A DNA stretch of 62,821 bases, filler included, from Candidatus Woesearchaeota archaeon (GTDB taxonomy: Archaea > Nanobdellota > Nanobdellia > Woesearchaeales > CAZJJJ01): the NCBI GenBank assembly GCA_046538795.1. It is 8 parts of 8 records of this genome, joined end to end, with 100 filler letters (N's around TTAATTAATTAA, not from the genome) between each part and the next. Parts side by side here need not be neighbours in the genome. Positions count along the whole stretch, not along the records: positions 27,513 to 45,773 come from JBKHIF010000025.1; 7 more parts are not named here. The stretch is one strand, 5' to 3'. The position numbers were made by a program, and so were the translations under genes. Of this stretch, positions 9,710 to 35,394 are shown piece after piece. Numbering within the stretch: position 1 is the stretch's first letter; every line of letters begins with the position of its first letter. Under the pieces are notes generated by a model. That model ran no database searches and was not told the DNA's origin. It worked only from the letters and a program-made list of their open reading frames with translations.

Positions 9710-9736
9710 ATTAATCAACCTAAACTTAAATAATGC

Positions 9737-16385: not shown

Positions 16386-16602
16386 AAAATACACCTCTTT
16401 TGCCAAACTCTATAAAGACCAACAAAAATTAATGTTAGTAAAATCATCTCAAATCATAACCATATCCGTATATAAGATTATATAATTACTTTAAAATGAA
16501 CAAAACAAACATGTTGAAAAAAATACAAAAAAAATAAAATAATTTAATAAAATGTGGGTTTTTGTTGTTTTAAATTTTACATTTTATTTGTCCTACAAGA
16601 TA

Positions 16603-16992
16603 TCAAAGCTTTATCCCCATATTAGATAAAACAATTGTGTTGTTCTCTCCGATATAGCCTTTGAGCATAATAAGGAATTCGTTTTTTCCGCCTTTTCCAC
16701 TGCACGGACCTGCGATCTGATCTATTATCTTTTGAAGCGCTTTTCCCAAAACCTTAGGATCTTCTTTATCGATATTTCTTGAAATTCTTAAAGCAGAAGA
16801 AGATGAACTATATGAAGAGGACGTAATTTTTATATTTTTAAGCAGAGGATAATCAGAAGATGTCTTATCAACTATGGTTTTTAAAACCATTGTTATGTAA
16901 TCCCTTGATGTTACTCTGCCACCTACATCAATAATAGTTTCTATGAGAATCTCAACTATTTTTTTGTTTGGCGTATTCATCTTAGTCAACAA
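16603..16992 (-). CDS. Hypothetical protein within chemotaxis block
   Basis: 129-aa ORF, co-oriented with neighbours; no motif recognised. Confidence 0.6.
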   Translation of the reverse strand: MLTKMNTPNKKIVEILIETIIDVGGRVTSRDYITMVLKTIVDKTSSDYPLLKNIKITSSSYSSSSSALRISRNIDKEDPKVLGKALQKIIDQIAGPCSGKGGKNEFLIMLKGYIGENNTIVLSNMGIKL

Positions 16993-17111
16993 AGATAATC
17001 AGGCACCATGTATTTAAGAATTATCATATAAAAATCATATTTTTTAGGATAATTTATCCTTATGTATTCGCTGCAAAGAATCTAAGAAGAAATGAAAAAA
17101 TTAAAAAAAGT

Positions 17112-18287
17112 CTAATCGACAAACTCAATTCCGAGGTCTGATTCAAGGTCTTTCTTCCTCTTTTCAGTAACTCCGCCTTTGCCAAATATCTGAGAAGATC
17201 TGACACCAGTCACTATAAGCATTGCCCGGATTGTATTTGCAAGATCTTCTGATACCTGCGCACCCCAGATTATCCTTGCGTCATTGTCAAGTTTTTCTGA
17301 GATTGTCTCGACAACCTTTCTTGCTTCTTCCAAGGTCATGTCAGGTCCGCCTGCAACATTGATAAGAGCGCCGTTAGCTCCAGAAACATCAACATCCAAA
17401 AGAGGATTATTAATGGCCTTTTCAACAGCCTCAACAGCACGGTTTTCTGTATCAGATTCACCGACACCGATAAGAGCGACTCCTCCATTTCCCATGACTG
17501 CTCTGATATCTGCAAAGTCAAGATTCACAAGGCCTGCTTTTGTTACAAGTTCAGCGATTCCTTTTACAGCGTTTGTAAGTATCTCATCTGCAACCTTAAA
17601 AGCAGTATGCAACGGAAGATCAGGCGCAAGCTCAAGAAGCTTGTCGTTTGGAATCACAATAAGGGTATCAACACTTTGCTCAAGCTTTTCAAGACCAAGT
17701 ATTGCATTTTCATATCTCCTGTGACCTTCCATTGTAAAAGGCATGGTGACAACAGCAACAGTTAATGCCCCCATCTTTTTTGAAACATCAGCGACAATAG
17801 GAGCAGCACCAGTACCTGTTCCTCCCCCCAGACCACATGTTATGAATACCATGTCTGCTCCGGAAAGAGATTGCTTTATGTTCTGCTCATCTTCTTTTGC
17901 TGCCTCTTCACCTACTTTAGGTATGCTTCCTGCACCAAGACCTCTCGTAGTTTCTTTTCCGATAAGGATCTTTATATCAGAAGTTGCATAAAGAAGATCC
18001 TGCGCATCTGTGTTTATTGCAATCGTCTCTGAGCCGACAATGCCAACCTCAGCAATCCTTGTAATAGTATTATTACCTCCTCCTCCAACACCTATGACCT
18101 TGATCTTTGCCTTTTGCTTAGAAAGAAGCTCTTCAAGCTCACGATCCAGGTCATTCTGCGAAGAGGTCTGGACATACTTAGGATGATCATTTCTTGATGG
18201 CTGAGAGGGTCTTTGTACATTTCCTGAATTCATCTCTGAACCATAATTTGATGAAAATTCATCTTCACTTCGTATAAAACTATCCAC
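17112..18287 (-). CDS. ftsZ: Cell division protein FtsZ (archaeal FtsZ1 type)
   Basis: GVGGGGNN, GLGGGTGTG tubulin signature, NLDFAD, C-terminal 'LGIEFV'; GTG at 18287 follows a GAGGTG SD. Confidence 0.97.
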   Translation of the reverse strand: MDSFIRSEDEFSSNYGSEMNSGNVQRPSQPSRNDHPKYVQTSSQNDLDRELEELLSKQKAKIKVIGVGGGGNNTITRIAEVGIVGSETIAINTDAQDLLYATSDIKILIGKETTRGLGAGSIPKVGEEAAKEDEQNIKQSLSGADMVFITCGLGGGTGTGAAPIVADVSKKMGALTVAVVTMPFTMEGHRRYENAILGLEKLEQSVDTLIVIPNDKLLELAPDLPLHTAFKVADEILTNAVKGIAELVTKAGLVNLDFADIRAVMGNGGVALIGVGESDTENRAVEAVEKAINNPLLDVDVSGANGALINVAGGPDMTLEEARKVVETISEKLDNDARIIWGAQVSEDLANTIRAMLIVTGVRSSQIFGKGGVTEKRKKDLESDLGIEFVD

Positions 18288-18447
18288 ATTACCCCACCTC
18301 AATCATAAATCAGGTTTACCACACTAAAGTGTTCATAAACTCATATATAAGCATATATATAGTTAAAAACATAAATTAAAAAAGGACAATTGCAATTTAT
18401 AGATGTTTGTCCTGTATAATTGCCAAACATAATTTTCAAAAACGGCC

Positions 18448-19179
18448 TTATTCTGACAAATTTTTACCTGAAGATTTTTCTTTAGAGTCTGATTTTTCAG
18501 AAGCCTTTTTCTGAGATTTTTTTTCAAATTTCACTTCTTTTACATCTACGCAGTCCTTTATGAAATCAGCAAACTCTTTTTCAAATTCTTTAGGGAAATC
18601 AATATCCATCAAAATATTTATGGAATTCTTTTCCTTGTCAAATCTTACATCCACATTCTCTTTCTTAATGTTTAGTTTCAACTCAAGAACAGATTTAACC
18701 TGCTCAACCTTATCATCTACAAGGTCTTTTATCTTAACTTCATAGACAAGATCCTTCCCTGCCAATGGATGATTGAAATCAACAATGACCCTTCCTCCTG
18801 AAACAGTCTTTATGACACCCATAGAACCATCTACTGTCACTTGAAGCCCAGGAACTGGTTTTATTCCCTGCTTTTTGAAAGTTGATGTCGGAACAAGCTT
18901 TATCAGGCTTGCAGATCGTTTTCCAAAAGAATCTCCAGAATTGATCTCTATAGTATAATCTTTTCCAATCTCTTTTCCGATCAAAGCATTGTCAAGAGCC
19001 TCTAATATCAACCCTTTTCCGACACAGGTCGTAACACTTCCGTATTTGATGCCCGGATTATAAAGGTGATTCTCTTTTGCGACACTTTCCAGGGTTGTGT
19101 CAAAGATGTATCCTTCGTTTTTTACTCTGCCGGTATAATCTATAGTTACAAAATCTTTTTCTTTTAATGTATGCGCCAT
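18448..19179 (-). CDS. slyD: FKBP-type peptidyl-prolyl isomerase (archaeal long SlyD type)
   Basis: 'IDYTGR..IFDTT', 'GRVIVDFNHPLAGKDL'. Confidence 0.92.
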   Translation of the reverse strand: MAHTLKEKDFVTIDYTGRVKNEGYIFDTTLESVAKENHLYNPGIKYGSVTTCVGKGLILEALDNALIGKEIGKDYTIEINSGDSFGKRSASLIKLVPTSTFKKQGIKPVPGLQVTVDGSMGVIKTVSGGRVIVDFNHPLAGKDLVYEVKIKDLVDDKVEQVKSVLELKLNIKKENVDVRFDKEKNSINILMDIDFPKEFEKEFADFIKDCVDVKEVKFEKKSQKKASEKSDSKEKSSGKNLSE

Positions 19180-19304
19180 TTTAGTTCCTGTTTGTTTTGT
19201 GAGAGAAAAAGAAAAGCATATTTAAAAGTTTCGGAGAGGTGTCGCTATTTTTAAGAAGTATACATAAATGATTTTTCTGACATCACATTTATCAGTCTTG
19301 CTTC

Positions 19305-19535
19305 CTAAAGCTTTCGATCCTCAAGCCAGCTTACAATAGGCCTGAAATTGGGGGCATTATCTGTTTTTTGATTGATCCAGTCAAGAAGCATGTTTTTAGG
19401 ATTTGTCGAACAGCAATGCTGACATATGAATATATCATCATTTATCACAAGCCCGGTAAGATTTTTCTCAAGCTCAATCTCTTTGTTGCACAGAGTACAT
19501 CTATATTCATCAGTTTTATTTGTATACATGCTCAT
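19305..19535 (-). CDS. Small zinc-finger-like protein
   Basis: CxxC...CxxCC; ATG at 19535 overlaps the upstream stop (ATGA) and has a GGTGGAG SD. Confidence 0.65.
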   Translation of the reverse strand: MSMYTNKTDEYRCTLCNKEIELEKNLTGLVINDDIFICQHCCSTNPKNMLLDWINQKTDNAPNFRPIVSWLEDRKL

Positions 19536-19891
19536 TTTATCTCCACCCATTCCAATGTATCTTTTCCACAATCAGGACATTTTTCTGCACTTATAGATTT
19601 CCAGTATTTCTTCAGACTATCAAAATCCTTTTTCTTAAGAAGCCCTTTTTTAAGCATCTTTGCATAAAAGTCCAGATTCTCATCAACATGAGGATTGTAT
19701 TTTTTAAGATCTTTATTTCTGCATTCTGGACATAAAGCAGGATCTGTGTTTTTCAAAGAGAAAAGATTCCTGCATTTTGAACAAGAGAAAACCTCATAGG
19801 AGACTTCTTTTTTTATGCTGCCATAATCCACATCATATTTTTTTTTGCATGACTTGCATGTTATCCTGTATTTTATCTGCAATATTATCAC
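19532..19891 (-). CDS. Zinc-ribbon protein with four CxxC motifs
   Basis: CKSC, CSKC, CPEC, CPDC. Confidence 0.7.
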   Translation of the reverse strand: MIILQIKYRITCKSCKKKYDVDYGSIKKEVSYEVFSCSKCRNLFSLKNTDPALCPECRNKDLKKYNPHVDENLDFYAKMLKKGLLKKKDFDSLKKYWKSISAEKCPDCGKDTLEWVEIK

Positions 19892-19967
19892 TCCCCGTCT
19901 AAAAAAGTTATACGAACATATATTTATAATTTTTTACTTCCCTTAATCTGAAAAACTTATCCGGGCT

Positions 19968-20831
19968 TCATTTCATCCTGTCTTTTACAGGTATGCTTAT
20001 AACAAAGCTCACTATGCCATCCTTGTTTACGGCATCCATCTTTCCTTTGTACTTATTGACAACATCATGTATTATTTTTAGTCCATGACCATGATTCTTG
20101 CCTTTTGTAGTAAAATTTTTGTTAGCGAGTATTTTTTTAATGTCCTGCCTGGATAAGGGATCGCCATCATCAGATATTTTTATCAAAAGACTTGAATCAT
20201 CTATTTGATGTTCTATCCATATATTTCCCTTGCCTGCAATCTCATCAACAGCATTTGATAGAAGATTGAAAAGCATAAGCTGTATCTCATATCCGCAGCA
20301 TAATATTGATCTTTCATTTGCAGGCTCTGTATAATTCATCTTTATGTGATCTCCTTTTTCAGGAGAATTGCCTACTGCATCTCCATATAGTTTATTAGGA
20401 TGTCTCCTAAGAAGCTGGCTTACTGTTGCATATACTATCTTGCTTATCTTGAAGTATTCTTCATAAGACGGATTTTGTGCTATCTTTTTTATAAGTGTGA
20501 TATTTTTTTTAACTCCGCTTAAGACATTCAGCATCTCTTCTTTTTTTTCAGGAGAAAGCTGGTCTTTTTTTATTGAGTTTTCAATTTTTTGTATGCATGC
20601 GTTAAGATCAATTATCTCATTATCTATATTTTCAGAACCTGCAAAATTTTCAAACATAGATATAGCGCATTTTATGATGTCAGCAGTTTCTGTTTTCTTG
20701 TTGAAACTGAAAAAAGTCCATAAAAGATTAAGTCCGCCAATTGAACTATGGCCATGCGCTCTGATATACCATTTTATTTTCTCGTTGACTTTTCCTGATA
20801 CCAATGCATTCTTCATTCTGATCCTTATCAA
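19968..20831 (-). CDS. Atypical sensor-less histidine kinase (HATPase_c)
   Basis: N box 'NLLSNAVD', G1 'ISDDG', F/G2 'FTTKGKNHGHGL'; ATGA overlap with cheV. Confidence 0.75.
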   Translation of the reverse strand: MIRIRMKNALVSGKVNEKIKWYIRAHGHSSIGGLNLLWTFFSFNKKTETADIIKCAISMFENFAGSENIDNEIIDLNACIQKIENSIKKDQLSPEKKEEMLNVLSGVKKNITLIKKIAQNPSYEEYFKISKIVYATVSQLLRRHPNKLYGDAVGNSPEKGDHIKMNYTEPANERSILCCGYEIQLMLFNLLSNAVDEIAGKGNIWIEHQIDDSSLLIKISDDGDPLSRQDIKKILANKNFTTKGKNHGHGLKIIHDVVNKYKGKMDAVNKDGIVSFVISIPVKDRMK

Positions 20832-21940
20832 ATCTGTGGATTTTCCTGAGCAGAAACTCCTGTTTCCAATGAATCTTTGTCAGACTGCGAAGAAGAAGCA
20901 TTTCTCGACAAAATATCATTTACCACGTTCAGAAGATTGCCAATCTCAGGCTTGCTTATCTGTGCATCTGCTCCTATCATCTCTCCTTTACGCCTTATCT
21001 CATCATATATTAATGATGAAAATAAAATCACAGGAAGAGTTTTCATTTCAGGATTTTCTTTAACTTGCCTGCAAAGCGTATGACCATCCATCTGTGGCAT
21101 CTCAATATCTGCAATAAGTATCTGCAAAGTATCATTGAGGTTTTTTCCAGAGTTTTTTGATTCTTCATAAAGAGAATTAAGATAATCCCATGCAAGCATT
21201 CCGTTATTTACAGGAATCACCTCAAAGCCTCCTTTTTCAAGTATGCCTGTGATCAGTTCTCTTACCATTTCTGAATCTTCTGCAAGAAGGACTTTTTTGT
21301 TTTCTCCAATAGATTTGGCCTTCTCGATAATATCTTTATCAGCAGAGATCGAAAGGCTGCTCTCAGGATTAATATCTGCAACAATCTTTTCAAAATCAAC
21401 CATGAGCATTATCCTATCTTCCAAAGGCACAATGCCTGTTATGGTATTTGTCTTCATGTTGTTTCTTATATTGCTGGGCGGAAGAACTTTTTTCCAAGAC
21501 ATTCTGTGTATAGTCTTTATCTTGTGAACAAGAAAGCCAAAATTTGCCTGATTAAATTCAGTTACGATTACAAAACAATCTTTATATTTTATGTCTTCGT
21601 GACGCTCATTCATCCAGGCAGCAAGATCTATAAGGGGTATTACCTTATCTCTTAGCTTGAACACACCGAGCATGTTTTTGTCAAGACTTGGCATCTTTAT
21701 GAATTCAGGCATCTTTATTATCTCTCTTACTTTAGCTACATTTATGCCAAAAGTCTGTATAGTGTTGCCTGAATTTTTCTGTTCTGCTGTTTCCTGAGAT
21801 TTTTCTCCAGAATCAGCATTTTCAGTAACACCAATCTCATCCTGAGGTTTTTTTAGATATATTCCAAACTCAGCTATCTCAAGTTCGTTTGTTCCTGTCT
21901 CAAGCAAGATTTCTTTTTTTTCAGTATCCATAAATATCAT
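20828..21940 (-). CDS. cheV: Chemotaxis protein CheV (CheW + receiver)
   Basis: 'ILLETGTNELEIAEF', 'FGINVAKVREI', 'TEFNQ..GFLV', 'DFEKIV', receiver 'LAEDS..DIEMPQMDG..FSSL..QISKP'. Confidence 0.93.
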   Translation of the reverse strand: MIFMDTEKKEILLETGTNELEIAEFGIYLKKPQDEIGVTENADSGEKSQETAEQKNSGNTIQTFGINVAKVREIIKMPEFIKMPSLDKNMLGVFKLRDKVIPLIDLAAWMNERHEDIKYKDCFVIVTEFNQANFGFLVHKIKTIHRMSWKKVLPPSNIRNNMKTNTITGIVPLEDRIMLMVDFEKIVADINPESSLSISADKDIIEKAKSIGENKKVLLAEDSEMVRELITGILEKGGFEVIPVNNGMLAWDYLNSLYEESKNSGKNLNDTLQILIADIEMPQMDGHTLCRQVKENPEMKTLPVILFSSLIYDEIRRKGEMIGADAQISKPEIGNLLNVVNDILSRNASSSQSDKDSLETGVSAQENPQI

Positions 21941-22000
21941 TTCCTCTTAGTATAATCCTTCTTATCAAAAAAGAAAACAAAACAAAATTTGTCAAGCCGA

Positions 22001-23092
22001 TTATTTTTTCTTAGGTTTTGCCGGTTTTTTTGACGCGGGCTTTTTTCCTGTTTTTTTTGAAACAGATTTCTTTACAGAAGGCTTATTTTTGGATGCTGCT
22101 GCTTTTTTTGAAACCTGTGAAGATGTTGATTTTTTAGTGCTTGCCTTTTTTGCAGCAGTCTTTTTTGCAGCTTTAGATTTTTCTTTTTGATTTGATTTGT
22201 TCACAGTTTTCTTGGATGATGTTTTTGGAGTGCTTTTTGCTGAAGATATTTTCTTTATCTTATTATTCTTAGCTGATTTGGATGAAACTTTTGCAGATGG
22301 TTTTTTCACAACTTTCTTAGACTGTTTTTTTGAAGAAGATTTTTTCACAGATTTAGTTTCTGGTTTTTCTTCCATAGCTTCATCAGTCACTTCAGGTATG
22401 CTTGTGTTTTCAGTTTCAGGATTTTTTTGTTCCTGAAAAGCCGGATTTTCTCCTGAAGAGTTGCTTTCTTCAACAGGTATATCCCGCGATGTTCCTTCAG
22501 CTGCGCTATTAGTTTGAGATGTACCTGAAATTGAATTTTCTTTACTAGGTGAAGGATCCTTGTTTGCAGCAGAACCTTTTGTCTGAGCGCTCATCACTTC
22601 TTCTATATCCTTATCCTCAAGCACTTTTGCAAGATCAAGCAATATAAGAAGCCTTTCATCAATAACTCCCACTCCTTCCAGATAAGATGAATCTATCTTC
22701 TGGGTTATTATCGAAGGAGCCGGTTTAATATTTTCTCCAGATATCCTTAAGACTTCAGTTGCTGAATCTACAACCATTCCAACTGTGCTTCCATTAATCT
22801 CAATAACTATTATACGAGTATTTTTGTCAGATTCTTTTGCAGGAAGCCCTAATTTCATCGCAAGGTTTATGACAACAATTATTCCTCCGCGAAGATTTAT
22901 AACACCCTGGATATAATCAGCAGTATTTGGAATCCTTGTTATTGATTCCATTCTGATTATCTCTTTAACTTCCATTATTTTTACGCCAAACTCTTCCTGT
23001 CCAAGCTTGAATACGACAACTTGTCTTTCATCAAAATGTTCTTTTTCCTCTTTTGTAGAACCCGCCTGATTCTGAATAACATCTTCCATCAT
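22001..23092 (-). CDS. cheW: CheW with long acidic linker and Lys/Ser/Ala-rich C-terminal tail
   Basis: CheW domain closely similar to 10875-11534, followed by about 190 low-complexity residues ending KKPASKKPAKPKKK. Confidence 0.9.
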   Translation of the reverse strand: MMEDVIQNQAGSTKEEKEHFDERQVVVFKLGQEEFGVKIMEVKEIIRMESITRIPNTADYIQGVINLRGGIIVVINLAMKLGLPAKESDKNTRIIVIEINGSTVGMVVDSATEVLRISGENIKPAPSIITQKIDSSYLEGVGVIDERLLILLDLAKVLEDKDIEEVMSAQTKGSAANKDPSPSKENSISGTSQTNSAAEGTSRDIPVEESNSSGENPAFQEQKNPETENTSIPEVTDEAMEEKPETKSVKKSSSKKQSKKVVKKPSAKVSSKSAKNNKIKKISSAKSTPKTSSKKTVNKSNQKEKSKAAKKTAAKKASTKKSTSSQVSKKAAASKNKPSVKKSVSKKTGKKPASKKPAKPKKK

Positions 23093-23201
23093 GATTCACC
23101 TGCATATGCAATCCAAAGATAAAAATATATGAAAATAAAAAAATAAAAATAATAACATATAATTTTGGCAGAGATGATTTAAAAAACTTTTGTTCCGAAG
23201 A

Positions 23202-25568
23202 CTATTTTTTCCCGGATTCTTTTTCTTTCATCTCTTTTATTCGTCTCATCTCTTCTTCATGCTTTTTTTTCTGTTCCAAAAGCTCTTTTTCATGTTTTTT
23301 TTTCTGTTCTAAAAGCTCTTTTTCCCTGTCGTCTTTATCTTTGCAAGAACTATCTGAACAGCCAGAATCAGATAAACCATCATCTTTCTTGTCTATAAGA
23401 TCTCTTGCAAGCTTTTTAAGTTCATCTGCTGCTGCGGTCAATTCCTGAGCAGAAGAACTTACCTGCTGCATCGATGCCGAGACCTGTTCGACAGAAGAGG
23501 ATACTTCTTCACTTCCAGCAGCATTTTCCTGCGCTACAGACGCCATTTCGTCAAGAGCCTTGTTTACATTTTCGACAAGACCGGGTATTGCCTGAAAAGA
23601 GGTAAGCGCTTCCTGGACAGCATTAGCTCCTTCATCAACCTGGTTTGTATTCAGGTCCATGCTTTCAACTGAGCTTTGTATCTCTCCTTGTATTCCTGTT
23701 ATAAGATCTGAAATCTGTTGGGTAGCTTTTCCAGTCTCTTCTGCAAGCTTTCTTACTTCATCTGCAACAACTGCAAAGCCACGTCCGGCATCCCCTGCTC
23801 TTGCAGCTTCAATTGCTGCATTTAATGCAAGAAGATTTGTCTGTTCAGAAATATTGTTTATTGTTTCAACAATATTTCCTATCTCTTTTGATTTTTCTCC
23901 CAAAAGCCTTATCTTTTCTGCGCCATCTTTTGTGGTCTTGCTTATTGTTCCCATCTTGTCATTAACTGCAACAGCAGACTTGCTTCCAGATTCAGCACTT
24001 TCCCCTGTTTTTTTGGAAGCAGTTTGAGCATCTCCTGATTTCTGGGAAACTGTCTGCGCGCCTTTTGCAACTTCCTGTATTGTTGAACTTACCTGCTGCA
24101 TCGACGCATTTACTTCTTCAGCGCTTGCTGAAAGCTCTTCGGCAGATGATGCAAAAGTATTTGCCATCTCACTTAATTTTCTCGACATTCTCTTATCTTT
24201 TGTTATATCCTGTATTATCTCGAAACCGCCTACTGGATTTCCATCCATATCTAAAAGAGGGCCGCAACCCGCCCTTATATCAAGCTTAGCTCCATTCTTT
24301 GTTGAAGCAATAGTCTCTGCAACAATAGGCTTTTTGGTATCCATGCAATTCTTAATAGTGCATTGCGCAGTATTGCATACAGGAGTTTTGCAGATATCTG
24401 CACAGGACATCTTTCCTACAACCTCATCTCTTGTATAGCCCATGGCTTCCAGGAATGAGTTATTGCAATCGGTTATTATGAGATCTTTATCTGCGTGAAA
24501 AACAGGATCAGGAATTCCATGGATAAAGCTTTTCTGTATCTCACTTTTATTTGTAACCTCGCGATTGACATTCCTTGAAAGATATACTGCGAAAACTCCA
24601 CCCAGAATAAGAGCTGATACACTTATTATTATCATAAGCATCGTTGCACTGTTCTGAGCTTTTTCCATTCCGTTTTCCTGAGAAATCTGAAGGGTCTCTG
24701 CAGCCAGATCAAAATCGTCTCCTGCATCTGTTGCAGCCTGCAAAGCCTGTGATGCATCATCATCACTTTCAATATAGCTTAATCCTGCCTCGTGATAATC
24801 TTCCAGCGCATCAAGAATGTCATCTGCCTGTCTTTTATTAAGATCATCATCAAAACTTTCCTTAAGTTTTTCAGTAGCATCAACAGCAAGATCATAATAT
24901 TCATTCCAGGAATCTCCATATTCACTATTGCCATAAAGCATCATCTTCATAGCGTTCATGCGCATGACATTTATGTAATTCTTGATTGTATTTGCATCCT
25001 GAAGTTTTTTGCTCCTGTCGCTTAAAGCGCTTCCTGAAAAACCTTGTGATATCTCTGATGAAAACTTATTTTCCTGATCAGAAATTATTTTTTCAGTAAC
25101 ATCCATAAGAGATAATGCAGCAGAATCCATCGAATCCTGAGAAGCTTTTTTTGATTCATAAGATGAAACAAGTTTTTCCATGCTTATATCATATTCCTCA
25201 AATGCCGCCCTTTGAGAGTCAATCTCATCTAGATCTTTCTGTGCCTTGAATTTTGCCTTTGTTTCAATCATCTTTTGATCGATTTGATCTTTCCATCCAT
25301 CATAATAATCTAAAGTAAGCTGATCTCGTCCTCCATAATAAGTGTTTTCACCATCTATCAAAAAATTTTTTGCTTCACCACGTATTTTATTGCCCATATG
25401 AAGAAGATCTTTTGCGTCACCGGCTTTTTCAACCCTGAAATCAACATTTTTAAGACCAATTATACCAACCACCGCAATAATCATAGCAAGCAGAAGAACA
25501 ACACCGAATCCAGCCCCTATCTTTATGATAAGGTCATTTCTGTTATCAGAACCTTTTTTTTTATCCAT
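23202..25568 (-). CDS. Methyl-accepting chemotaxis protein: helical extracellular sensor, Cys-rich PAS domain, MA domain
   Basis: Two TM helices; PAS 'IPDPVF..DKDLIIT..N..F...GY.RDEVVG' with [23 protein letters not shown] tip motif. Confidence 0.92.
23256..23324. repeat. 33-nt tandem repeat ([11 protein letters not shown] x2) in MCP tail
   Basis: Two near-identical 33-nt units. Confidence 0.8.
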
Positions 25569-25789
25569 CTAATCCACACCTCTTTTACCAGCAGGCAAAA
25601 CTTAAGATCCATGTTCTTTATATCATAAACAAACAGTATCCATTTTGCCAAAACAAACAGCACAACTGCAAATATCGAAAAAAAAACAACCAAAATAATG
25701 CAAGATATTTTCCCTGAATTTTTTAATATAAATCTGACGCAAAAAAAAGGATAAAAGAAATCAGAAAAAGGATAATTAAAAAGAAAAAA

Positions 25790-26617
25790 TCACTCAGCAA
25801 TTTCAAATATGCGTTCTGTTGTATTGTATGCTTTATATAATGTCCTTGCACTTCCCATTATTGTTTCGGTCTTTCCAATAATAAGAAATCCGTCTTTATT
25901 TAGAACGTTGTGAAAGTCAAGGTAGAGATTGTTCTTAGTTTCAGAATCAAAATAGATGACTGTATTTCTGCAAAAGATTATGTCAATATTTTTTGGTTTT
26001 GAATTTGAAAGTATATCTCCTCTTTCAAACCTGACAAGTGTTTTCAAAGACAATACAGGAGAATATGTACTTTCCTCTGACTGAAAATATTTTTTGAGAT
26101 AAGCAGGCGGCATCTCTCTGAACTGAAGTGTTTCGTATTTTGCAATCTTTGCTTTATCCACTGTCTTCTGGTCATAATCTGTTCCTGTAATGCTTACATT
26201 GAATCCTCCCAAATCATCTCCCAGGACTTCTTTTAAGCATATTGCAATAGAATATGCTTCTTCGCCTGTCGATGATCCTGCGCTCCATATCCTTATGTTT
26301 TTTTCATTTCTGGCTTTTTTTCTCCTGATTAATTCAGGGATAATATCTGACATGAAAAAGTTCCACATTGACTGATCCCTGAAAAAATTAGTGACATGGA
26401 TTGTAAGCTCTTTATCAAGCCTTTTTTGTTCATCAGCACTTTCTGAAAGAAGTCTTGAATATTCAGAATACGAATCAATATTTACTGCACGCAGCCTTGT
26501 TTCAATTCTTCTTGTAAGAAAAGAATTAGAATACTGGGAACAATCAAAACCAAGCACTTCCCCGATTTTTTTCTTTAGCATCTCAAATTTTTCTGGATCT
26601 TTTACTTCGACAATCAT
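25790..26617 (-). CDS. cheR: Chemotaxis methyltransferase CheR
   Basis: 'TIHVTNFFRD', 'RIWSAGSSTGEEAYS', 'DIIFCRNTVIYFD', 'GFLIIGKTE'. Confidence 0.96.
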   Translation of the reverse strand: MIVEVKDPEKFEMLKKKIGEVLGFDCSQYSNSFLTRRIETRLRAVNIDSYSEYSRLLSESADEQKRLDKELTIHVTNFFRDQSMWNFFMSDIIPELIRRKKARNEKNIRIWSAGSSTGEEAYSIAICLKEVLGDDLGGFNVSITGTDYDQKTVDKAKIAKYETLQFREMPPAYLKKYFQSEESTYSPVLSLKTLVRFERGDILSNSKPKNIDIIFCRNTVIYFDSETKNNLYLDFHNVLNKDGFLIIGKTETIMGSARTLYKAYNTTERIFEIAE

Positions 26618-26681
26618 TTTATTTACATGGTTTTATTAAGCATTAAATAATTTACGTTTTGGCAATAAAAAGAGAAAAAAC

Positions 26682-27170
26682 TCAAAGTTCTTTTATACCA
26701 TCTTTAGTTTTTATTTTGAGTATTCCGTTACTTAGATCAAATCTTATGGTGCGTCCTAAATTTCCCCCGGTCTCATTAACAGTTATGGGGATGCTTTGCT
26801 CTTCCAGAACTATTTTTACAGCTTCTGCATTTTTTTTGCCTATGTCCATATTATCATTAAGTGAAAGAGAAGAAAACATATGGGCGCCTCCTGCGATCTT
26901 TGCTTTAAGTCTTGCCTTATTGCAACCTTTTGATTCAAGATCTTTTAGCATGTTTGGCAGGGCAACATCAGCAAACTTATTTTGGTTTATTGTATCATTT
27001 TTTGCGTTATCATAAATGTTGGGAAGCATGATGTGAGCAAGGCCACCTATCTTTTTTTCAGAATCATAGATCGCAACCCCTACACAAGAACCAAGCCCCA
27101 GAGAGACTAATATATCAGGGGATGCTGAAACAGCATATTTTCCCATATCTACCATGATTTCTTCAGACAC
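26682..27170 (-). CDS. cheD: Chemoreceptor glutamine deamidase CheD
   Basis: 'LGLGSCVGV', 'GGLAHIMLP', 'KFAD', 'AKIAGGAHMF', 'IGKKN', 'TGG..GRTI'. Confidence 0.96.
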   Translation of the reverse strand: MSEEIMVDMGKYAVSASPDILVSLGLGSCVGVAIYDSEKKIGGLAHIMLPNIYDNAKNDTINQNKFADVALPNMLKDLESKGCNKARLKAKIAGGAHMFSSLSLNDNMDIGKKNAEAVKIVLEEQSIPITVNETGGNLGRTIRFDLSNGILKIKTKDGIKEL

Positions 27171-31098: not shown

Positions 31099-31305
31099 AT
31101 TTCTGTCTTATTTTTATTTTTTAAATTAATGCTTGTTGATGTTTTTTCTGTTACTACTATGTGTACTTACAATATCTTTTTAAAGTATTTATTCTAATGA
31201 GCCAAATAATTGTTAAAATTATCCTCAATAAGTTAATTTTGTCCTGAAACTCATGATTCATGTGTTTCTTGCAGAGATATTTGAGTAAAAATAAGGTGAT
31301 ATCTG

Positions 31306-33171
31306 ATGAAAGAACTGAGTCCTGTGATAGGTGTTGATAAGGATAACTGTGTAAACTGCCATGCCTGCATTGATGCCTGTCCTGTCAAGCACTGTAATGA
31401 TGGTAGCGGCGATACTGTTAAGCTTAATCATAATACCTGCATTGGATGCGGAGAATGCTTAAAGGCCTGTACGCATGACGCGCGGTATGTGATTGATGAC
31501 ATAGAGCATTTCCTTGATGATGTTAAGCATGGAGAAAGAATAGTTGCAATAGCTGCGCCTTCTGTGGCATCCAGCTTTCCAAATAAATATCTTAATCTTA
31601 ACGGCTGGCTTAAGTCAATTGGTGTAGATGCTGTTTTTGATGTTAGTTTTGGAGCTGAACTTACTGTAAAATCATATCTTGAACATGTCAAGGCAAATAA
31701 TCCGAAAATGGTCATAGCTCAGCCATGCCCTGCATTGGTTACTTATATTGAGATGTACAGGCCTGAGCTTTTGCCTTATCTTGCGCCTGCTGACAGTCCT
31801 ATGCTTCATACAATAAAGATGATAAAGAGATTTTATCCTGATTATTCCCGCCACAAGGTTCTTGTCTTGTCTCCGTGTGTCGCAAAAAAAAGGGAATTTG
31901 ATGAGACTGGATATGGTGATTATAATGTTACTTATCATAATCTTAACAAGTACTTTGATCATAACAATATACGTCTTGATCAGTTTCCAAAGGTTGATTA
32001 TGACAATCCTGATGCTGAGCGAGCTGTTCTCTTTTCAAGTCCGGGAGGTCTTTTAAGGACTGCCGAGAGAGAATATCCAGGGATATCTGAAGTCTCGAGA
32101 AAGATTGAAGGGCCTGAACTCATATACAAGTATTTTAATGGTCTTCCTTCTGCTGTAAATTCCGGACGAAATCCTCTTCTTGTAGATTGCCTTAACTGCG
32201 AGATGGGATGCAACGGCGGTACTGGAACAGATTGCAAGGAGATGCATGTGGACGAGATTGAGTCTTTAGTAGAAGAAAGGAGCAAGCAGGTAAGGGGCCG
32301 TTATGGTAAAAAAGGTTTGATTAACCCAAAGAACAGTGTGAAAGAGCTTAGGAAATATATAGATGACCACTGGGAGAAGGGCCTTTATGACAGGAATTAT
32401 GTTGACTTGTCATCCAATGTAAGTATAAAGATGCCGACGCAGTCAGATATACAGAAGATATATAGCGAGGACCTACAAAAAGAATCTGAAAAAGAGGTAT
32501 ATAACTGCGGGGCATGCGGTTATGGATCCTGCGAGGGAATGGCTGTTGCAATATATAATGGCCTTAACAAGGCAGAGAATTGTCTTCATTATAATGAGAA
32601 AGTCATCTCAAAAGACAGGGAGAAGATCGCAAGGGCTAATGAAAAGAATTCAAAGCTTGCGTCTGAGATCGGCGAGACTATAGGAAAGGCAAATGAGATG
32701 CTTGTAAAGAAAGCGACAGATCTTCTTAACATGGCACAGACACAGGAAGCAGAATTTGAGAATTTGGTAAAGGAAACATCAGAGACATCAAAGGTCGCTG
32801 AGAAATTCGTGCCGATTGTTGAAACAATAAATGATATCACAGACCAGACAAGCCTTCTTGCGCTTAACGCGGCAATAGAGGCTGCAAGAGCAGGAGATGT
32901 GGGAAGAGGTTTTGCTGTGGTTGCTGACGAAGTCAAGAAGCTTTCTTCAAGATCCATGGCAGAAACCGAGAAGATAAAGCCGTATTCTGAAGAGATTCAG
33001 GCAGCATTCAACATGATCAATGAAAAGGTTTCGGGAACTTCGAAAAAATATGCAGACACTGCACATCTGATTGAGGAAGTGACTGCAATTACAGAAGAGA
33101 TCTCTGCGCAGACAAAAAAACTATGCACAGAGGCAGATTGCAACAGACCAGACACTTCAGAAGAGAATTGA
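31306..33171 (+). CDS. Sensory [FeFe]-hydrogenase-like protein fused to an MCP signalling domain (group C2-like)
   Basis: N-terminal 2x[4Fe-4S] ([23 protein letters not shown]); H-cluster motifs [26 protein letters not shown]; extra FeS '[10 protein letters not shown]'; MCP tip '[30 protein letters not shown]'; no TM. Confidence 0.88.
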
Positions 33172-33231
33172 AATTTTTCTTTTTTTTCTTTCATAACCTT
33201 TTTAAATTAATCTTTATTCATTTATTCTAAA

Positions 33232-35394
33232 ATGTCCTCTGAAAATAATAATGGCAGCAAAAATAAGATACTTGTGACAAGCGCGCTTCCTTATGTCAAC
33301 AATGTTCCTCATCTGGGAAATATCATAGGTTGTGTTCTCTCAGCAGATGTCTATGCAAGGTTTGCAAGAAATATGGGTTATGATACTTTGTTTGTATGCG
33401 GGACCGATGAGCATGGAACTACTTCTGAATCAAAGGCAATGGAAGAAGGTGTAGCTCCTAAAGAGATCTGTGACAAGTATTACAAGATTCACAAGAAGAT
33501 ATATGAGTGGTTTAAGTGCAGTTTTGATGCTTTTGGGCGTACTTCTGACAAGGCTAATCATGAGACTGCCCAGGACATATTCCTCAAACTTAAAGATAAT
33601 GGTTATATTCTGGAAGATGAGATTGAACAGATGTATTCTGAAAAAAGCAAGATGTTTCTCGCTGATCGGTTTGTCGAAGGAAAATGTCCTAAATGCGGAT
33701 TTGAAAAGGCAAGAGGAGATCAGTGCGACAACTGCGGAACCATGCTTAATCCAACTGATCTTATAGATCCTGTTTCAAAGGTTGACGGTACAAAGCCTGT
33801 AATAAAGAAAGTGAAGCACCTTTTCATGGATCTTCCAAAAATTGCTCCTGAACTTAAGAACTGGATTGATTCCAGAAATAAGAATTGGTCTGAAAATGCA
33901 AGAAAGATGACATCTGCATGGTTAAGAGATGGACTTAAGCCAAGATGTATAACAAGGGATCTTAAATGGGGAGTCAAGGTTCCTATGGAAGGTTATACTG
34001 ACAAGGTTTTCTATTCCTGGTTTGATGCGCCGATAGGATATATTGGTATTGCAAAAGCAGCATTTGATGATTGGAATGAGTGGTGGAAAGATGATGAAAA
34101 TGTGCGCCTGATACAGTTCATGGGAAAAGACAACATCCCTTTCCATACGATAATGTTCCCTTCTTTTCTTATAGGGGCAAAAGATGATTATACCTTGCTT
34201 TACAATATTTCATCTACTGAGTATCTTAACTATGAGACAGGAAAGTTCTCAAAGAGCAATAATACTGGTGTTTTTGGGGATGATGCCATGAACACAGGAA
34301 TACCTGTTGATGTGTGGAGGTATTACTTGCTTGCAAATCGTCCTGAGACTTCAGATACTGAATTTTCATGGAAGGATTTTCAGGAGAGGAACAATTCAGA
34401 GCTTCTTGCTAACTTAGGAAATTTTGTAAACAGGACTCTTACTTTTTCATCAAAGAATTTTGATCTGGGCGTTCCTGAATCAGGGCTGGATGCCAAGGGA
34501 AGGGAATTTATGGACAAGATAGAAAAAGAGATCAGGATATATGAGAACATGATGGAAAAGATACAGCTCAGGGATGGCATAAAACAAGTTATGCACATAT
34601 CCAGATTGGGTAATCAGTTTTTTCAGGAGCAGGAACCTTGGAAGATGGTAAAGGAAAATAAGGAAGTATGCGCAGCTTCAATTTATGCGTGCTGCGAACT
34701 TGTAAGAAAGCTTGCTATAATTGTTGAACCATATCTTCCTGAGACAAGCAAAGAAATCTTTTCACAGCTTGGGATGGATGGCCAGAATATGGATTCTATC
34801 CTTAAGATGATAGGGCCTGGACATAAGTTTGGATCAGTAAAACCTATCTTCAGGAAGCTTGAAGATTCTGAGATAAAGAGTTTCCAGGATAAATTTTCAG
34901 GAAAAAGGGAAGAGAAACAGGAAGATCACTCAGATCTTTCGCTTCCGAATCTGAAAGTTGCAGAAATACTTTCTGTAGAGGATCACCCTGATGCAGACAA
35001 ATTGTTTGTCATGCAGATCAATTTAGGGGCCGAGAAAAGACAGCTTGTCGCAGGACTCAGGGCATATTATTCTAAAGAAGAGCTTTTAGGAAAACATATT
35101 GTTGTTGTAAGCAACCTTAAGCCTGCAAAATTAAGGGGGAAGGAAAGCCAGGGAATGCTTCTTGCAGCTGATAAAAAAGATATTGTAAAAGTCCTTGAAG
35201 CCCCTCAGTCTGAACCAGGAACACAAGTGTATTTTGAAGGCGTTACTCCATCAGAAAAGCAGATAACTATCGATGATTTTTTTACGATAAAGATCAAGAT
35301 AAAAGACAAGAAAGCACAGGCTGAAGGAAAGTTCCTTAAGACTGATTCAGAATTTGTTTCTGTTGACATAGCTGATGGTGCCAAGGTCAGGTAG
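33232..35394 (+). CDS. metG: Methionyl-tRNA synthetase with C-terminal tRNA-binding OB domain
   Basis: 'TSALPYVNNVPHLGN', Zn knuckles, 'WFDAPIGY', 'KFSKS', C-terminal 'HPDADKL..NLKPAKLRGKESQGMLLAA'. Confidence 0.97.
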   Translation: MSSENNNGSKNKILVTSALPYVNNVPHLGNIIGCVLSADVYARFARNMGYDTLFVCGTDEHGTTSESKAMEEGVAPKEICDKYYKIHKKIYEWFKCSFDAFGRTSDKANHETAQDIFLKLKDNGYILEDEIEQMYSEKSKMFLADRFVEGKCPKCGFEKARGDQCDNCGTMLNPTDLIDPVSKVDGTKPVIKKVKHLFMDLPKIAPELKNWIDSRNKNWSENARKMTSAWLRDGLKPRCITRDLKWGVKVPMEGYTDKVFYSWFDAPIGYIGIAKAAFDDWNEWWKDDENVRLIQFMGKDNIPFHTIMFPSFLIGAKDDYTLLYNISSTEYLNYETGKFSKSNNTGVFGDDAMNTGIPVDVWRYYLLANRPETSDTEFSWKDFQERNNSELLANLGNFVNRTLTFSSKNFDLGVPESGLDAKGREFMDKIEKEIRIYENMMEKIQLRDGIKQVMHISRLGNQFFQEQEPWKMVKENKEVCAASIYACCELVRKLAIIVEPYLPETSKEIFSQLGMDGQNMDSILKMIGPGHKFGSVKPIFRKLEDSEIKSFQDKFSGKREEKQEDHSDLSLPNLKVAEILSVEDHPDADKLFVMQINLGAEKRQLVAGLRAYYSKEELLGKHIVVVSNLKPAKLRGKESQGMLLAADKKDIVKVLEAPQSEPGTQVYFEGVTPSEKQITIDDFFTIKIKIKDKKAQAEGKFLKTDSEFVSVDIADGAKVR

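What the first reader, a model, noticed from the sequence alone, without database searches (positions are those of the whole stretch)
31306..33171. Soluble [FeFe]-hydrogenase-chemoreceptor fusion: candidate H2-taxis sensor in a DPANN archaeon
Seen: 2x[4Fe-4S] ferredoxin, all three H-cluster motifs, an extra Cys4 cluster, and a short MCP hairpin-tip domain with no TM helix and little methylation helix. The motifs carry sensory-type substitutions: TSCCP becomes AQPCP (proton-transfer Cys lost), MPC becomes SPC, and ExMxC becomes DCLNC. Known: this architecture matches HydDB group C2 ('chemotactic') [FeFe]-hydrogenases, described from anaerobic bacteria, with HydS-like low-activity substitutions. 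The gene lies 60 nt from an archaeal-type metG on the same contig, so it is not simply a mis-binned bacterial contig. Inference: it could feed the CheW/CheV array on contig 3 and steer a small symbiotic or fermentative archaeon along H2 gradients toward partner cells. No hydE/F/G maturases are in this window.
Basis: partly seen in the sequence, partly recalled or inferred. Interest (0 to 1): 0.85.

Follow-up and report, generated by a model that had tools for sequence, protein, structure and literature searches.

The report
Hydrogenase-type chemoreceptor in a DPANN archaeon
A small archaeon carries an intact soluble chemotaxis receptor whose sensor is a slowed-down iron-iron hydrogenase, a receptor type catalogued in bacteria since 2016 but never tested, so what is unusual here is the archaeal host rather than the protein.

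Summary
ORF 31306-33171 (+, 621 aa) has two ferredoxin-type [4Fe-4S] motifs, an [FeFe]-hydrogenase H-domain, a Cx2Cx4Cx16C cluster motif and a short MCP hairpin. It has no TM helix and no methylation consensus site.

The "sensory substitutions" are not special to this gene. All 121 family rows share xQPCP / SPCxAKxRE / DCLNCxxGCNGG. More than 4000 proteins match the query, and the 120 best listed share the architecture. All 80 genome loci that were returned are bacterial. This fits HydDB's putative "chemotactic" group C2.

The gene really sits in an archaeon:
- The neighbouring MetRS matches same-family genomes best.
- An independent metagenome bridges the gene-metG junction.
- A second Nanobdellota genome, G122, has a 62-63% identical copy in archaeal context.

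It is rare in the phylum: 2 of 401 genomes in one sample, and 0 of 6 same-family genomes.

The host has CheA/B/R/D/W/Y, a CheV-like protein, archaellins and a HydABC-type hydrogenase. No HydE/F/G and no CheF were found.

H2 sensing is inferred, not shown. The scan found this fusion before in bacterial DNA. Verdict: a new, archaeal member of a known kind, of moderate interest.

The parts
31118..31145 (+). Upstream copy of a repeat that flanks the gene. It lies just after the stop codon of the upstream ORF (31098) and holds the TATA-like TTTTTAAATTAAT.
   Evidence: Direct repeat D3, 28 nt, 79% identical to 33199-33226. The exact 13-mer occurs only 3 times in the 1.34 Mb genome, and 2 of the 3 are these copies. 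In run X2 a 30-nt piece identical to 33182-33211 sits between 31116 and 31143.
31293..31299 (+). Shine-Dalgarno-like AAGGTGA, 6 nt before the ATG at 31306.
   Evidence: Read directly from the sequence. That it is used is inferred.
31306..33171 (+). Whole gene: a soluble [FeFe]-hydrogenase-type sensor fused to an MCP signalling hairpin (621 aa).
31333..31485 (+). N-terminal 2x[4Fe-4S] ferredoxin-like domain (aa 10-60; Cys 15, 18, 21, 25 and 45, 48, 51, 55).
   Evidence: Pfam Fer4 families. All eight Cys are invariant in 43 aligned homologs.
31537..32220 (+). H-domain (aa 78-305) with L1 AQPCP (31717-31731), L2 SPCVAKKRE (31870-31896) and L3 [12 protein letters not shown] (32185-32220).
   Evidence: Fe_hyd_lg_C 108.9 bits. 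PDB phmmer E 5e-19 to solved [FeFe]-hydrogenases. Foldseek's listed top hits are all [FeFe]-hydrogenases. Motif alignment.
32506..32583 (+). Cx2Cx4Cx16C accessory cluster motif (aa 401-426), directly ahead of the first long helix of the output hairpin.
   Evidence: PF04060 at aa 399-427. Motif conserved in the family. Land et al. 2020 describe this motif in the M2e and M2f enzymes (group D and group C). The model puts helix 427-498 straight after it.
32584..33141 (+). MCP helical hairpin (aa 427-612) with its tip near aa 528-530 ([30 protein letters not shown]).
   Evidence: MCPsignal 109.3 bits. AF2 helices 427-498, 501-528 and 530-612. Tip nearly identical to the host's three TM MCPs; no methylation consensus.
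33199..33226 (+). Downstream copy of the flanking repeat; a TATA-like element 21-33 nt upstream of the metG ATG.
33232..35394 (+). metG (MetRS, 720 aa), the vertically inherited archaeal neighbour 60 nt downstream.
   Evidence: Pfam. Best matches are same-family genomes at 58-63% identity on the longer matches, falling with distance. The junction is bridged by an X2 contig covering 32713-35267.
9179..27170 (-). Separate contig (G000:C86) with the likely downstream partners: CheY 10123-10497, CheW 10878-11534, MCPs 11636-13837, 13974-16406 and 23205-25568, CheW-REC (CheV-like) 20831-21940, CheW-domain protein 22004-23092, CheR 25793-26617, CheD 26685-27170. Spt5/NusG, SecE and FtsZ lie alongside.
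   Evidence: Pfam. Contig borders.

Best explanation
The gene encodes a cytoplasmic chemoreceptor of the MCP-linked putative sensory [FeFe]-hydrogenase family (HydDB group C2), carried by a motile, chemotactic Nanobdellota (DPANN) archaeon. It was most likely acquired from bacteria.

Proposed mechanism:
1. The H-domain binds an H-cluster. Its pocket lacks the proton-relay Cys: Pro140 sits at the C299 position, Ser189 at M353 and Leu296 at M497.
2. H2 reduces the H-cluster slowly and persistently instead of being turned over fast.
3. Electrons equilibrate with the accessory clusters, including the Cx2Cx4Cx16C cluster that sits directly on the N-terminal helix of the MCP hairpin.
4. The redox-linked change travels down the short four-helix bundle to the conserved tip, which modulates CheA through CheW or the CheV-like protein.
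5. CheY then biases the archaellum.

The organism also has a HydABC-type hydrogenase whose H2 production is thermodynamically sensitive to H2. The receptor would therefore let it hold position in a favourable H2 zone, for example near H2 consumers in a microbial mat.

Shown: the domain anatomy, family membership by homology, the archaeal host, and the presence of Che and archaellum genes.
Inferred: cofactor binding, H2 as the signal, the sign of the response, and coupling to the host array.
For: Anatomy and family:
- Domain hits and motifs as described.
- AF2 model with pLDDT 85.9 has a hydrogenase-fold head and a helical hairpin. The listed Foldseek hits are all [FeFe]-hydrogenases.
- 4082 proteins match at E<=1e-5. 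The 120 best listed have the same Pfam set at 45-62% identity over 92-100% of the query.
- Named carriers include Thermodesulfatator indicus, Desulfoluna limicola, Brucepastera parasyntrophica, Treponema and Geobacteraceae.
- Land 2020 passages: group C/D enzymes share 2x[4Fe-4S], Cx2Cx4Cx16C and loss of C299. M353/M497 become Ser/Leu in TamHydS, which is the pair seen here.

Archaeal host:
- MetRS 60 nt downstream matches same-family genomes best.
- An X2 contig from another study bridges 32713-35267.
- G122, whose protein P0002 is labelled 'Nanobdellota archaeon', has a 62-63% identical copy between a MiaB-like radical-SAM gene and HerA. The same contig carries OapB/C, L37ae, Pcc1 and prefoldin.
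- The 3 of 3 strain differences inside the gene are synonymous.

Downstream pathway:
- CheA (P1-P5), CheB, two CheY and a CheX-like protein on C25.
- CheW x2, a CheV-like protein, CheR, CheD and three TM MCPs on C86.
- 13 archaellin-family matches and 2 ArlI/PilB-type ATPases.
- HydC-HydB-HydA genes.

Foreign origin:
- 2 of 401 phylum genomes carry it, and 0 of 6 same-family genomes.
- All 80 genome-contig loci are bacterial.
- Gene GC is 41.6%, the 97.6th percentile of 764 ORFs.
- Direct repeats flank the 2.07-kb segment.
Against: - No experiment on any C2 member turned up in three literature searches. H2 as the ligand therefore rests on homology to HydS-type enzymes.
- No HydE, HydG or HydF reaches its cut-off in G000 (97.6% complete). 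No HydG was found in G122. How a [2Fe] subcluster would be made is unknown, although Greening 2024 report the same for 122 of 130 archaeal genomes that have active enzymes.
- The same pocket residues occur in ultraminimal archaeal enzymes. These are probably group E, which is catalytically active, so the 'sensory' residues are not diagnostic.
- CheF was not found.
- The hairpin is about 13 heptads per arm with no methylation site, while the host's other MCPs are much longer. Co-assembly in one array and adaptation are both uncertain.
- The tree backbone is an unresolved star. Neither the donor nor the number of transfers can be told.
- The neighbour metG is also GC-rich (86.8th percentile), so composition is weak evidence.
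Confidence: 0.6

Rival explanations
1. Redox or energy-taxis sensor without H2 chemistry. With no HydEFG the H-domain stays apo, holding only [4Fe-4S]H. The four or five Fe-S clusters then report the redox state of the ferredoxin pool, or O2/oxidant exposure, to the Che pathway.
For: No maturase reaches its cut-off in either archaeal carrier. The protein has an N-terminal ferredoxin-like electron entry domain and an extra cluster next to the output helix. Soluble redox-sensing MCPs are common in archaea: 44% of MCPs were cytoplasmic in one survey.
Against: All residues that hold the H-cluster are invariant across 121 rows, including the bridging Cys302, Lys194 and the GCNGG loop. An apo sensor would not need this. 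Archaea without HydEFG still make active [FeFe] hydrogenases, and the same genome keeps a HydABC-type enzyme.
Confidence: 0.25
2. A horizontally acquired passenger that is not wired into the host's chemotaxis array. It may be expressed or not, but has no behavioural role.
For: It is rare and patchy: 2 of 401 phylum genomes and 0 of 6 same-family genomes. The hairpin is far shorter than the host's other receptors and has no methylation sites. No RNA data are available.
Against: The ORF is intact with every family-invariant residue. The 3 of 3 differences between two samples are synonymous. Both archaeal carriers are among the 17 of 401 phylum genomes that have MCPs at all, and both have CheA. 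The tip sequence is nearly identical to the host's own MCPs.
Confidence: 0.1
3. An assembly or binning artefact: a bacterial gene wrongly joined to, or binned with, archaeal DNA.
For: The family is overwhelmingly bacterial. The gene is GC-richer than most of the genome. The genome is a 97-contig MAG.
Against: Contigs from two studies carry the same joins: a 15.6-kb X1 contig spans 30400-35400 (X1 may be the source sample), and X2 record 9 bridges 32713-35267. MetRS and the rest of the contig are of this archaeal lineage. An independent archaeal genome, G122, has its own copy in a different archaeal context.
Confidence: 0.03

Closest known systems
HydDB [FeFe]-hydrogenase group C2, 'Chemotactic (putative)' (Sondergaard, Pedersen & Greening 2016, PMC5037454; Table 1 passage seen). 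Bacterial members found here include Thermodesulfatator indicus 'methyl-accepting chemotaxis sensory transducer' (P0045), Geobacteraceae, Treponema and Desulfoluna limicola.
   Same: Same domain order and length (about 590-670 aa). Identity is 45-62% over nearly the full length. The hallmark motifs xQPCP, SPCxAKxRE, DCLNCxxGCNGG and Cx2Cx4Cx16C are identical, as is the short MCP hairpin.
   Different: The host is an archaeon (Nanobdellota). The output would have to reach an archaellum through an archaeal-type Che system. No HydEFG genes are present in the genome.
TmHydS (Thermotoga maritima, group C, M2f) and TamHydS (Thermoanaerobacter mathranii, group D, M2e), the characterised putative sensory [FeFe]-hydrogenases (Land et al. 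2020, PMC8163306, passages seen; Chongdar et al. 2018 only as cited there).
   Same: [quoted passage not shown] The Ser/Leu pair here equals that of TamHydS.
   Different: The output is an MCP hairpin, not a PAS domain (TmHydS) or no fused output (TamHydS). The C299 position holds Pro here. An extra invariant Cys (C295) lies in L3.
Ultraminimal archaeal [FeFe]-hydrogenases of DPANN (group E of Greening et al. 2024, PMC11216029, passages seen).
   Same: Archaeal, from the same class as the host. H-domain pocket with (S/T)PCP, (S/G)PC and D-x-L-F-C, close to the window's (rows L106, L107, L110). The paper places group E as sister to bacterial group C.
   Different: Only about 290-320 aa, with no ferredoxin domain, no Cx2Cx4Cx16C and no MCP. 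Identity is about 30%, and a branch of about 5 substitutions per site separates them. That the rows I used are group E is inferred from size and taxon, not tested.
Cytoplasmic (class IV) chemoreceptors of archaea and bacteria.
   Same: No TM helix, an N-terminal cofactor-binding sensor and a conserved hairpin tip.
   Different: The sensor is a hydrogenase domain. The hairpin is unusually short and has no methylation consensus. The archaeal chemoreceptor survey never uses the word 'hydrogenase' and states that DPANN lack chemotaxis (passages).

Membership tests
HydDB [FeFe] group C2 (MCP-linked putative sensory hydrogenase) | H-domain homologous to the [FeFe]-hydrogenase large subunit | tested here: met
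   PF02906 108.9 bits against a cut-off of 22.1. PDB E 4.9e-19. Foldseek E 4.8e-19 to CbA5H, and the listed hits are all hydrogenases.
HydDB [FeFe] group C2 (MCP-linked putative sensory hydrogenase) | The four Cys that ligate the H-cluster, plus the Lys of L2, are retained | tested here: met
   C141, C191, C298, C302 and K194 align with the canonical positions and are invariant in the family.
HydDB [FeFe] group C2 (MCP-linked putative sensory hydrogenase) | Group C/D-type pocket: proton-relay Cys (C299) lost, M353 and M497 replaced | tested here: met
   P140, S189 and L296. The criterion comes from Land 2020 passages.
HydDB [FeFe] group C2 (MCP-linked putative sensory hydrogenase) | N-terminal 2x[4Fe-4S] domain and C-terminal Cx2Cx4Cx16C motif | tested here: met
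HydDB [FeFe] group C2 (MCP-linked putative sensory hydrogenase) | Linked to a methyl-accepting chemotaxis protein signalling domain | tested here: met
   PF00015 109.3 bits against a cut-off of 34.6, in the same polypeptide.
HydDB [FeFe] group C2 (MCP-linked putative sensory hydrogenase) | Clusters with HydDB's C2 reference sequences (k-NN or phylogeny) | not testable with these tools
   No HydDB reference set was on hand. Indirectly, the protein sits inside a 100/100-supported clade of 45 same-module proteins, 37 of them full-length MCP fusions.
HydDB [FeFe] group C2 (MCP-linked putative sensory hydrogenase) | Binds the H-cluster and reacts with H2 | not testable with these tools
   This needs expression, [2Fe]adt maturation and FTIR/EPR.
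Methyl-accepting chemotaxis proteins | Conserved kinase-control hairpin tip | tested here: met
   The tip sequence is nearly identical to the host's three TM MCPs. N521, A522, E525, G530, G533 and F536 are invariant.
Methyl-accepting chemotaxis proteins | Methylation sites for CheR/CheB adaptation | tested here: not met
   No match to [ASTG][ASTG]xx[EQ][EQ]xx[ASTG][ASTG], against 5-7 in each of the genome's other MCPs. The consensus pattern was recalled from memory. One near miss, [10 protein letters not shown], lies at about aa 597-606 and was read by eye from the sequence printed.
Methyl-accepting chemotaxis proteins | CheA and CheW encoded in the same genome | tested here: met
Nar1/IOP1-like hydrogenase-like proteins (no H-cluster) | Clusters with eukaryotic Nar1/NARF rather than with true hydrogenases | tested here: inconclusive
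   No Nar1-like name appears among the PDB sequence matches (62 found, 60 listed) or the NCBIfam hits. All close relatives are prokaryotic MCP fusions. No Nar1 reference sequence was compared directly.

The most novel reading that the evidence does not exclude
A free-swimming DPANN archaeon steers along H2 gradients with a bacterial-derived hydrogenase chemoreceptor, matures its H-cluster without HydEFG, and passes the signal to an archaellum without a recognisable CheF. This would be the first sensory (group C-type) [FeFe]-hydrogenase in Archaea, and a behavioural link between a reduced-genome fermenter and its H2-consuming neighbours in microbial mats.
Probability: 0.3. Interest if true: 0.7.

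Novelty: new member of a known kind. Interest (0 to 1): 0.45.

Why it matters
- Census gap. The 2024 census of archaeal [FeFe] hydrogenases sorted 130 genomes into groups A1, A3, B, E, F and G. It calls group C the sensory hydrogenases "of bacteria". A Woesearchaeota study found only group A. A 2022 survey of archaeal chemoreceptors stated that DPANN have no chemotaxis system. This gene, and its counterpart in G122, put a group-C-type sensor and a full Che system into Nanobdellota.
- Lifestyle. Some members of a lineage usually viewed as attached symbionts may swim and choose their position by H2 or redox.
- Maturation puzzle. This is a second H-cluster protein in a genome without HydEFG.
- Limits. 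The protein is an ordinary member of a very large bacterial family. The open question of whether C2 proteins mediate H2 taxis is easier to test in cultured bacterial carriers (Desulfoluna limicola, Thermodesulfatator indicus, Brucepastera parasyntrophica) than in this uncultured archaeon.

Tried and rejected
- Chimera or mis-binning: rejected.
- RNA evidence: no RNA holder was listed for the stretch, so nothing can be said on expression.
- Synteny: I looked for the pre-insertion state around metG in 5 relatives. Only MetRS is shared, so there is no empty site to compare.
- Donor and number of transfers. The quick LG tree put the archaeal and unnamed rows in a basal grade. The quick PMSF tree put them in a 95-supported clade of 8 with a Thermoguttaceae row. 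The finished careful tree collapsed this into a star. The two archaeal rows form one clade in 4% of bootstrap trees, yet the AU test does not reject one clade (p 0.421). This stays undecided.
- Closest metagenome contigs: L167, L144, L123 and L146 (57-64% identity) have 50-63% GC. In the tree, L167 and L123 group with a Geobacteraceae row, L144 with an Acidobacteriaceae row and L146 with Treponema rows. They are probably not further archaeal copies.
- Origin of unnamed relatives: the unnamed closest proteins P0003-P0005, P0007, P0011 and P0030 could not be traced. No names are given and the tool that finds encoding contigs is closed.
- CheF was not found with PF04283. A divergent adaptor cannot be excluded.
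- Complex prediction was not used. A receptor tip with CheW is a textbook pair that would pass by likeness to solved structures.
- Literature for an experimental test of C2, or for an archaeal group C: nothing relevant.
- Greening et al. 2016 (PMC4817680) is not held. The supplementary tables of the 2024 Cell paper were not opened; they may list further archaeal sequences.
Full report
**What the window is.** The 62,821-base window is not one molecule. It holds eight contigs joined by 44 N + TTAATTAATTAA + 44 N spacers. The finding lies on the fourth piece, 27513-45773, which is contig C88 of genome G000. G000 is a 1.34-Mb assembly in 97 contigs, rated 97.6% complete and 1.6% contaminated.

**The observation.** ORF 31306..33171 (+) encodes 621 aa. 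Pfam finds:
- ferredoxin-type 4Fe-4S motifs at aa 10-60;
- Fe_hyd_lg_C at aa 78-305 (108.9 bits; cut-off 22.1);
- the "putative Fe-S cluster" domain PF04060 at aa 399-427;
- MCPsignal at aa 472-607 (109.3 bits; cut-off 34.6).

NCBIfam gives only sub-threshold matches to [FeFe]-hydrogenase groups B1 and A and to various chemoreceptors.

Against the PDB, the N-terminal 255-354 residues match solved [FeFe]-hydrogenases (best E 4.9e-19) and the C-terminus matches MCPs. The printed alignment puts the window's [10 protein letters not shown] under ILTSCCPSWI and LSPCVAKK under IMPCIAKK.

An AlphaFold2 model built on 43 homologs (mean pLDDT 85.9, pTM 0.72) shows a mixed alpha/beta head up to about aa 426, followed by three long helices (427-498, 501-528, 530-612) that form a hairpin. 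The listed top Foldseek matches in the PDB are all [FeFe]-hydrogenases, the best being CbA5H at E 4.8e-19.

The protein has no hydrophobic segment. Its maximum 19-residue Kyte-Doolittle mean is 0.88, against 2.8-3.1 in the three other MCPs of the genome. It has no match to the methylation consensus, a pattern I recalled from memory, against 5-7 in each of those MCPs. Only 91 residues follow the hairpin tip, against 195-254 in the others. The gap to metG is exactly 60 nt.

**The motifs are family hallmarks.** I aligned the protein with 39 database homologs and 80 named bacterial loci. In this alignment the window was represented by the database entry P0001, which differs from the ORF at one residue. 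Every one of 121 family rows has Q139, S189-P190-C191, K194, E197, D294-C295-L296, C298, G301-C302-N303 and G305. In 120 of 121 rows P140, C141 and P142 are also kept.
- The C299 position (CpI numbering) holds Pro.
- The M353 position holds Ser.
- The M497 position holds Leu.
- The accessory motif is exactly Cx2Cx4Cx16C (C401, C404, C409, C426).

Land et al. 2020 (PMC8163306, passages seen) describe these features for the putative sensory subclasses M2f (group C, TmHydS) and M2e (group D, TamHydS): two N-terminal [4Fe-4S] motifs, a C-terminal Cx2Cx4Cx16C, and loss of C299. M497/M353 become Ser/Gly in TmHydS and Leu/Ser in TamHydS. The window has the TamHydS pair.

One caution applies. Three ultraminimal (290-322 aa) H-domain-only enzymes from genomes of the same class (rows L106, L107, L110) have nearly the same pocket. 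By size and taxon they look like Greening's group E, whose members bind the H-cluster and make H2 (PMC11216029, passages). The substitutions are compatible with a sensor but do not prove one.

**The family.** A search of 5.8 billion proteins returned 4082 matches at E<=1e-5 among 8000 scored candidates. The 120 best listed all carry the same Pfam set, at 45-62% identity over 92-100% of the query. All 80 loci returned from species-representative genomes are bacterial. They come from Geobacteraceae, many Spirochaetota, Bacteroidota, Planctomycetota, Synergistota, Fibrobacterota, "Cyanobacteria" MAGs, Clostridium and others. Cultured strains among them include Desulfoluna limicola, Brucepastera parasyntrophica, Clostridium sp. 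ZS2-4 and Saccharicrinis sp.; Thermodesulfatator indicus appears.

Some relatives keep the first ~445 residues but end in other, longer output regions (ORFs of 839-1269 aa).

[quoted passage not shown] I found no experimental test of a C2 protein. One paper merely discards C2 hits from its hydrogenase count (PMC9431212). This scan has met the same fusion four times before in bacterial DNA and reached the same filing.

**Is it really archaeal?** Yes.
1. MetRS, 60 nt downstream, has its longer matches in the six genomes of the same family at 58-63% identity. Identity is 51-60% in nearer same-order genomes and 35-39% in more distant ones, as expected for vertical descent.
2. Contigs of two public runs carry the same joins. 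A 15.6-kb contig of X1, which may be the source sample, spans 30400-35400 with 4 differences. In X2, from another study, record 9 runs from 32713 to 35267 across the gene-metG junction, and record 6 joins the upstream ORF to the gene.
3. The closest database protein, P0002 (62%, NCBI label "Nanobdellota archaeon"), is letter for letter the protein of genome G122, a same-order genome of another family. There the gene lies between a MiaB-like radical-SAM gene and HerA. The contig also carries OapB/OapC, ribosomal protein L37ae, Pcc1 and prefoldin. It shares no synteny with the window.
4. Nanobdellota belongs to the kingdom Nanobdellati, the DPANN group.
5. The gene looks maintained. It keeps every family-invariant residue, and the three differences between samples inside it are all synonymous.

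**How rare, and where from.** In a sample of 401 genomes of the phylum, only G000 and G122 have a full-length match. About 60 others have ordinary 540-600-aa HydA-type enzymes, and a few have the ultraminimal type. The tally of that call includes three genomes flagged as unpublished (G360, G244, G322); no claim here rests on them. In a second draw of 401 genomes of the order, only G000 matched at E<=1e-60, and none of the 6 other genomes of its family did. These six are 72-98% complete, so this means "not found", not "absent".

The gene's GC (41.6%) and GC3 (37.5%) lie at the 97.6th and 97.5th percentiles of 764 long ORFs. Its neighbour metG is also high.

The 2.07-kb segment holding the gene and its 5' leader is bracketed by a direct repeat: 31118-31145 against 33199-33226, 79% identical over 28 nt. 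The exact 13-mer TTTTTAAATTAAT occurs only three times in the whole genome, and two of the three are these copies. In X2's strain a 30-nt piece identical to 33182-33211 sits at the upstream site. I read this as an insertion into the promoter region of metG with duplication of that region. This is an inference.

Trees of the sensor module do not resolve the donor. The careful PMSF tree (48 rows, 444 columns) separates the family from the ultraminimal archaeal enzymes with 100/100 support, but its backbone is a star. G122 groups with three unnamed proteins (92/87), and the window's row hangs on the polytomy. The two archaeal rows are one clade in 4% of bootstrap trees, yet an AU test does not reject one clade (p 0.421). 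Earlier quick trees gave other, unstable placements. From the breadth in bacteria and the rarity in archaea I infer transfer from bacteria into Nanobdellota. Whether that happened once or twice cannot be told.

**The host's equipment.**
- Contig C86 carries CheY, CheW, three transmembrane MCPs (dCache/HAMP; dCache/HAMP/CZB; PAS), a CheW-REC (CheV-like) protein, a second CheW-domain protein, CheR and CheD. Beside them lie Spt5/NusG, SecE, FtsZ and an FKBP26-type isomerase.
- Contig C25 carries a CheX-like protein, a complete CheA (Hpt, P2, dimerisation, ATPase and CheW domains), CheB and two CheY.
- CheA's nearest named relatives are Nanobdellota and Woesearchaeota MAGs (46-59%), then Methanoperedens and Syntrophoarchaeum (about 42-43%). 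The Che system itself is therefore archaeal and not unique to this genome.
- MCP domains above cut-off occur in 17 of 401 phylum genomes, and both carriers of the fusion are among them. G122 also has CheA.
- There are 13 archaellin-family matches, seven of them in tandem on C35, and two ArlI/PilB-type ATPases.
- CheF was not found.
- A HydC-HydB-HydA gene set is split over the end of C46 and the start of C24. This is the trimeric A3 type already described for Woesearchaeota (PMC8421398).
- HydE, HydG and HydF do not reach their cut-offs, and HydG is missing from G122 too. Greening et al. report this for most archaea with [FeFe] hydrogenases: only 5 of 130 genomes have a full set.

**Mechanism proposed.**
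*Shown:* a soluble receptor in which a hydrogenase-type head with up to five Fe-S sites is joined, through the Cx2Cx4Cx16C cluster domain, directly to the first helix of an MCP hairpin with a canonical tip.
*Inferred:*
1. H2 reduces an H-cluster that releases protons poorly.
2. The reduced state persists and spreads to the accessory cluster next to the output helix.
3. The conformational change alters CheA control at the tip.
4. CheY-P changes archaellum rotation.

With no methylation sites, adaptation would have to come from slow re-oxidation or from neighbouring receptors. For an H2-producing fermenter with a confurcating HydABC, moving to low-H2 zones near consumers would make sense. The runs that hold this DNA are labelled microbial-mat metagenomes.

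The main rival is a redox or energy sensor that works without the [2Fe] subcluster.

**Verdict.** The feature is real and correctly described. The protein is a typical new member of a catalogued, untested bacterial family. The new point is its presence in DPANN archaea, where neither the published census of archaeal [FeFe] hydrogenases nor the survey of archaeal chemoreceptors reports it. Interest is moderate.

Noticed in passing
window 4411-4510, 8894-8993, 27413-27512, 45774-45873, 50155-50254, 54440-54539, 58690-58789: The window is eight MAG contigs joined by N44-TTAATTAATTAA-N44 spacers. Adjacency across these points is artificial.
   Followed up: yes
window 31118-31145 and 33199-33226: A direct repeat brackets the gene. 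Its 13-mer occurs only 3 times in the genome. A second sample (X2) has a 30-nt perfect copy at the upstream site. This looks like an insertion with duplication of metG's promoter region.
   Followed up: partly
window 9179-27170 (C86) and G000:C25 (L118:361-5125): A full Che set (CheA, B, R, D, W x2, Y x3, CheX-like), plus a CheW-REC (CheV-like) protein, in a DPANN genome. A 2022 survey of 352 archaeal genomes stated that DPANN have no chemotaxis system (PMC9680633). CheF was not found. MCPs occur in 17 of 401 genomes of the phylum.
   Followed up: partly
G000:C35, L119:13175-14662 (-): A 496-aa ORF with bacterial sigma-70 regions 1.2, 2, 3 and 4 lies on a contig that also carries seven archaellin genes, OapB/OapC and an archaeal-type D-aminoacyl-tRNA deacylase.
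   Followed up: no
G000:C46 end (L116:6727-9951) and C24 start (L117:1-730): A HydC-like 2Fe-2S protein, a NuoF-like HydB and a HydA are present. The HydA reading frame is cut by the contig break. This is a trimeric A3-type [FeFe]-hydrogenase in a genome without HydEFG.
   Followed up: partly
aa 295 of the ORF (window 32188-32190): An extra Cys is invariant in all 121 family rows. It lies inside L3 (DCLNC), three residues before the C499-equivalent ligand. It is also present in one of the three ultraminimal archaeal rows. Its role is unknown.
   Followed up: no
loci L024, L036, L039, L040, L043, L051, L053, L060, L073: Bacterial relatives keep the same ~445-aa sensor module but continue into other, longer C-terminal regions (ORFs of 934-1269 aa). 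These are other output variants of the same sensor.
   Followed up: no
window 35941-45308: Five consecutive large ORFs (758, 1112, 345, 280 and 649 aa) downstream on the same contig have no Pfam match at E<=0.001.
   Followed up: no
window 54573-55245 (-): A HepT-like RNase and a nucleotidyltransferase (MNT) form a pair, which is a toxin-antitoxin-type module.
   Followed up: no
window 4571-5881 (-): A Mur-ligase-family protein (middle and C-terminal domains) lies beside a 5-formyl-THF cyclo-ligase family gene and SHMT in this archaeal bin.
   Followed up: no
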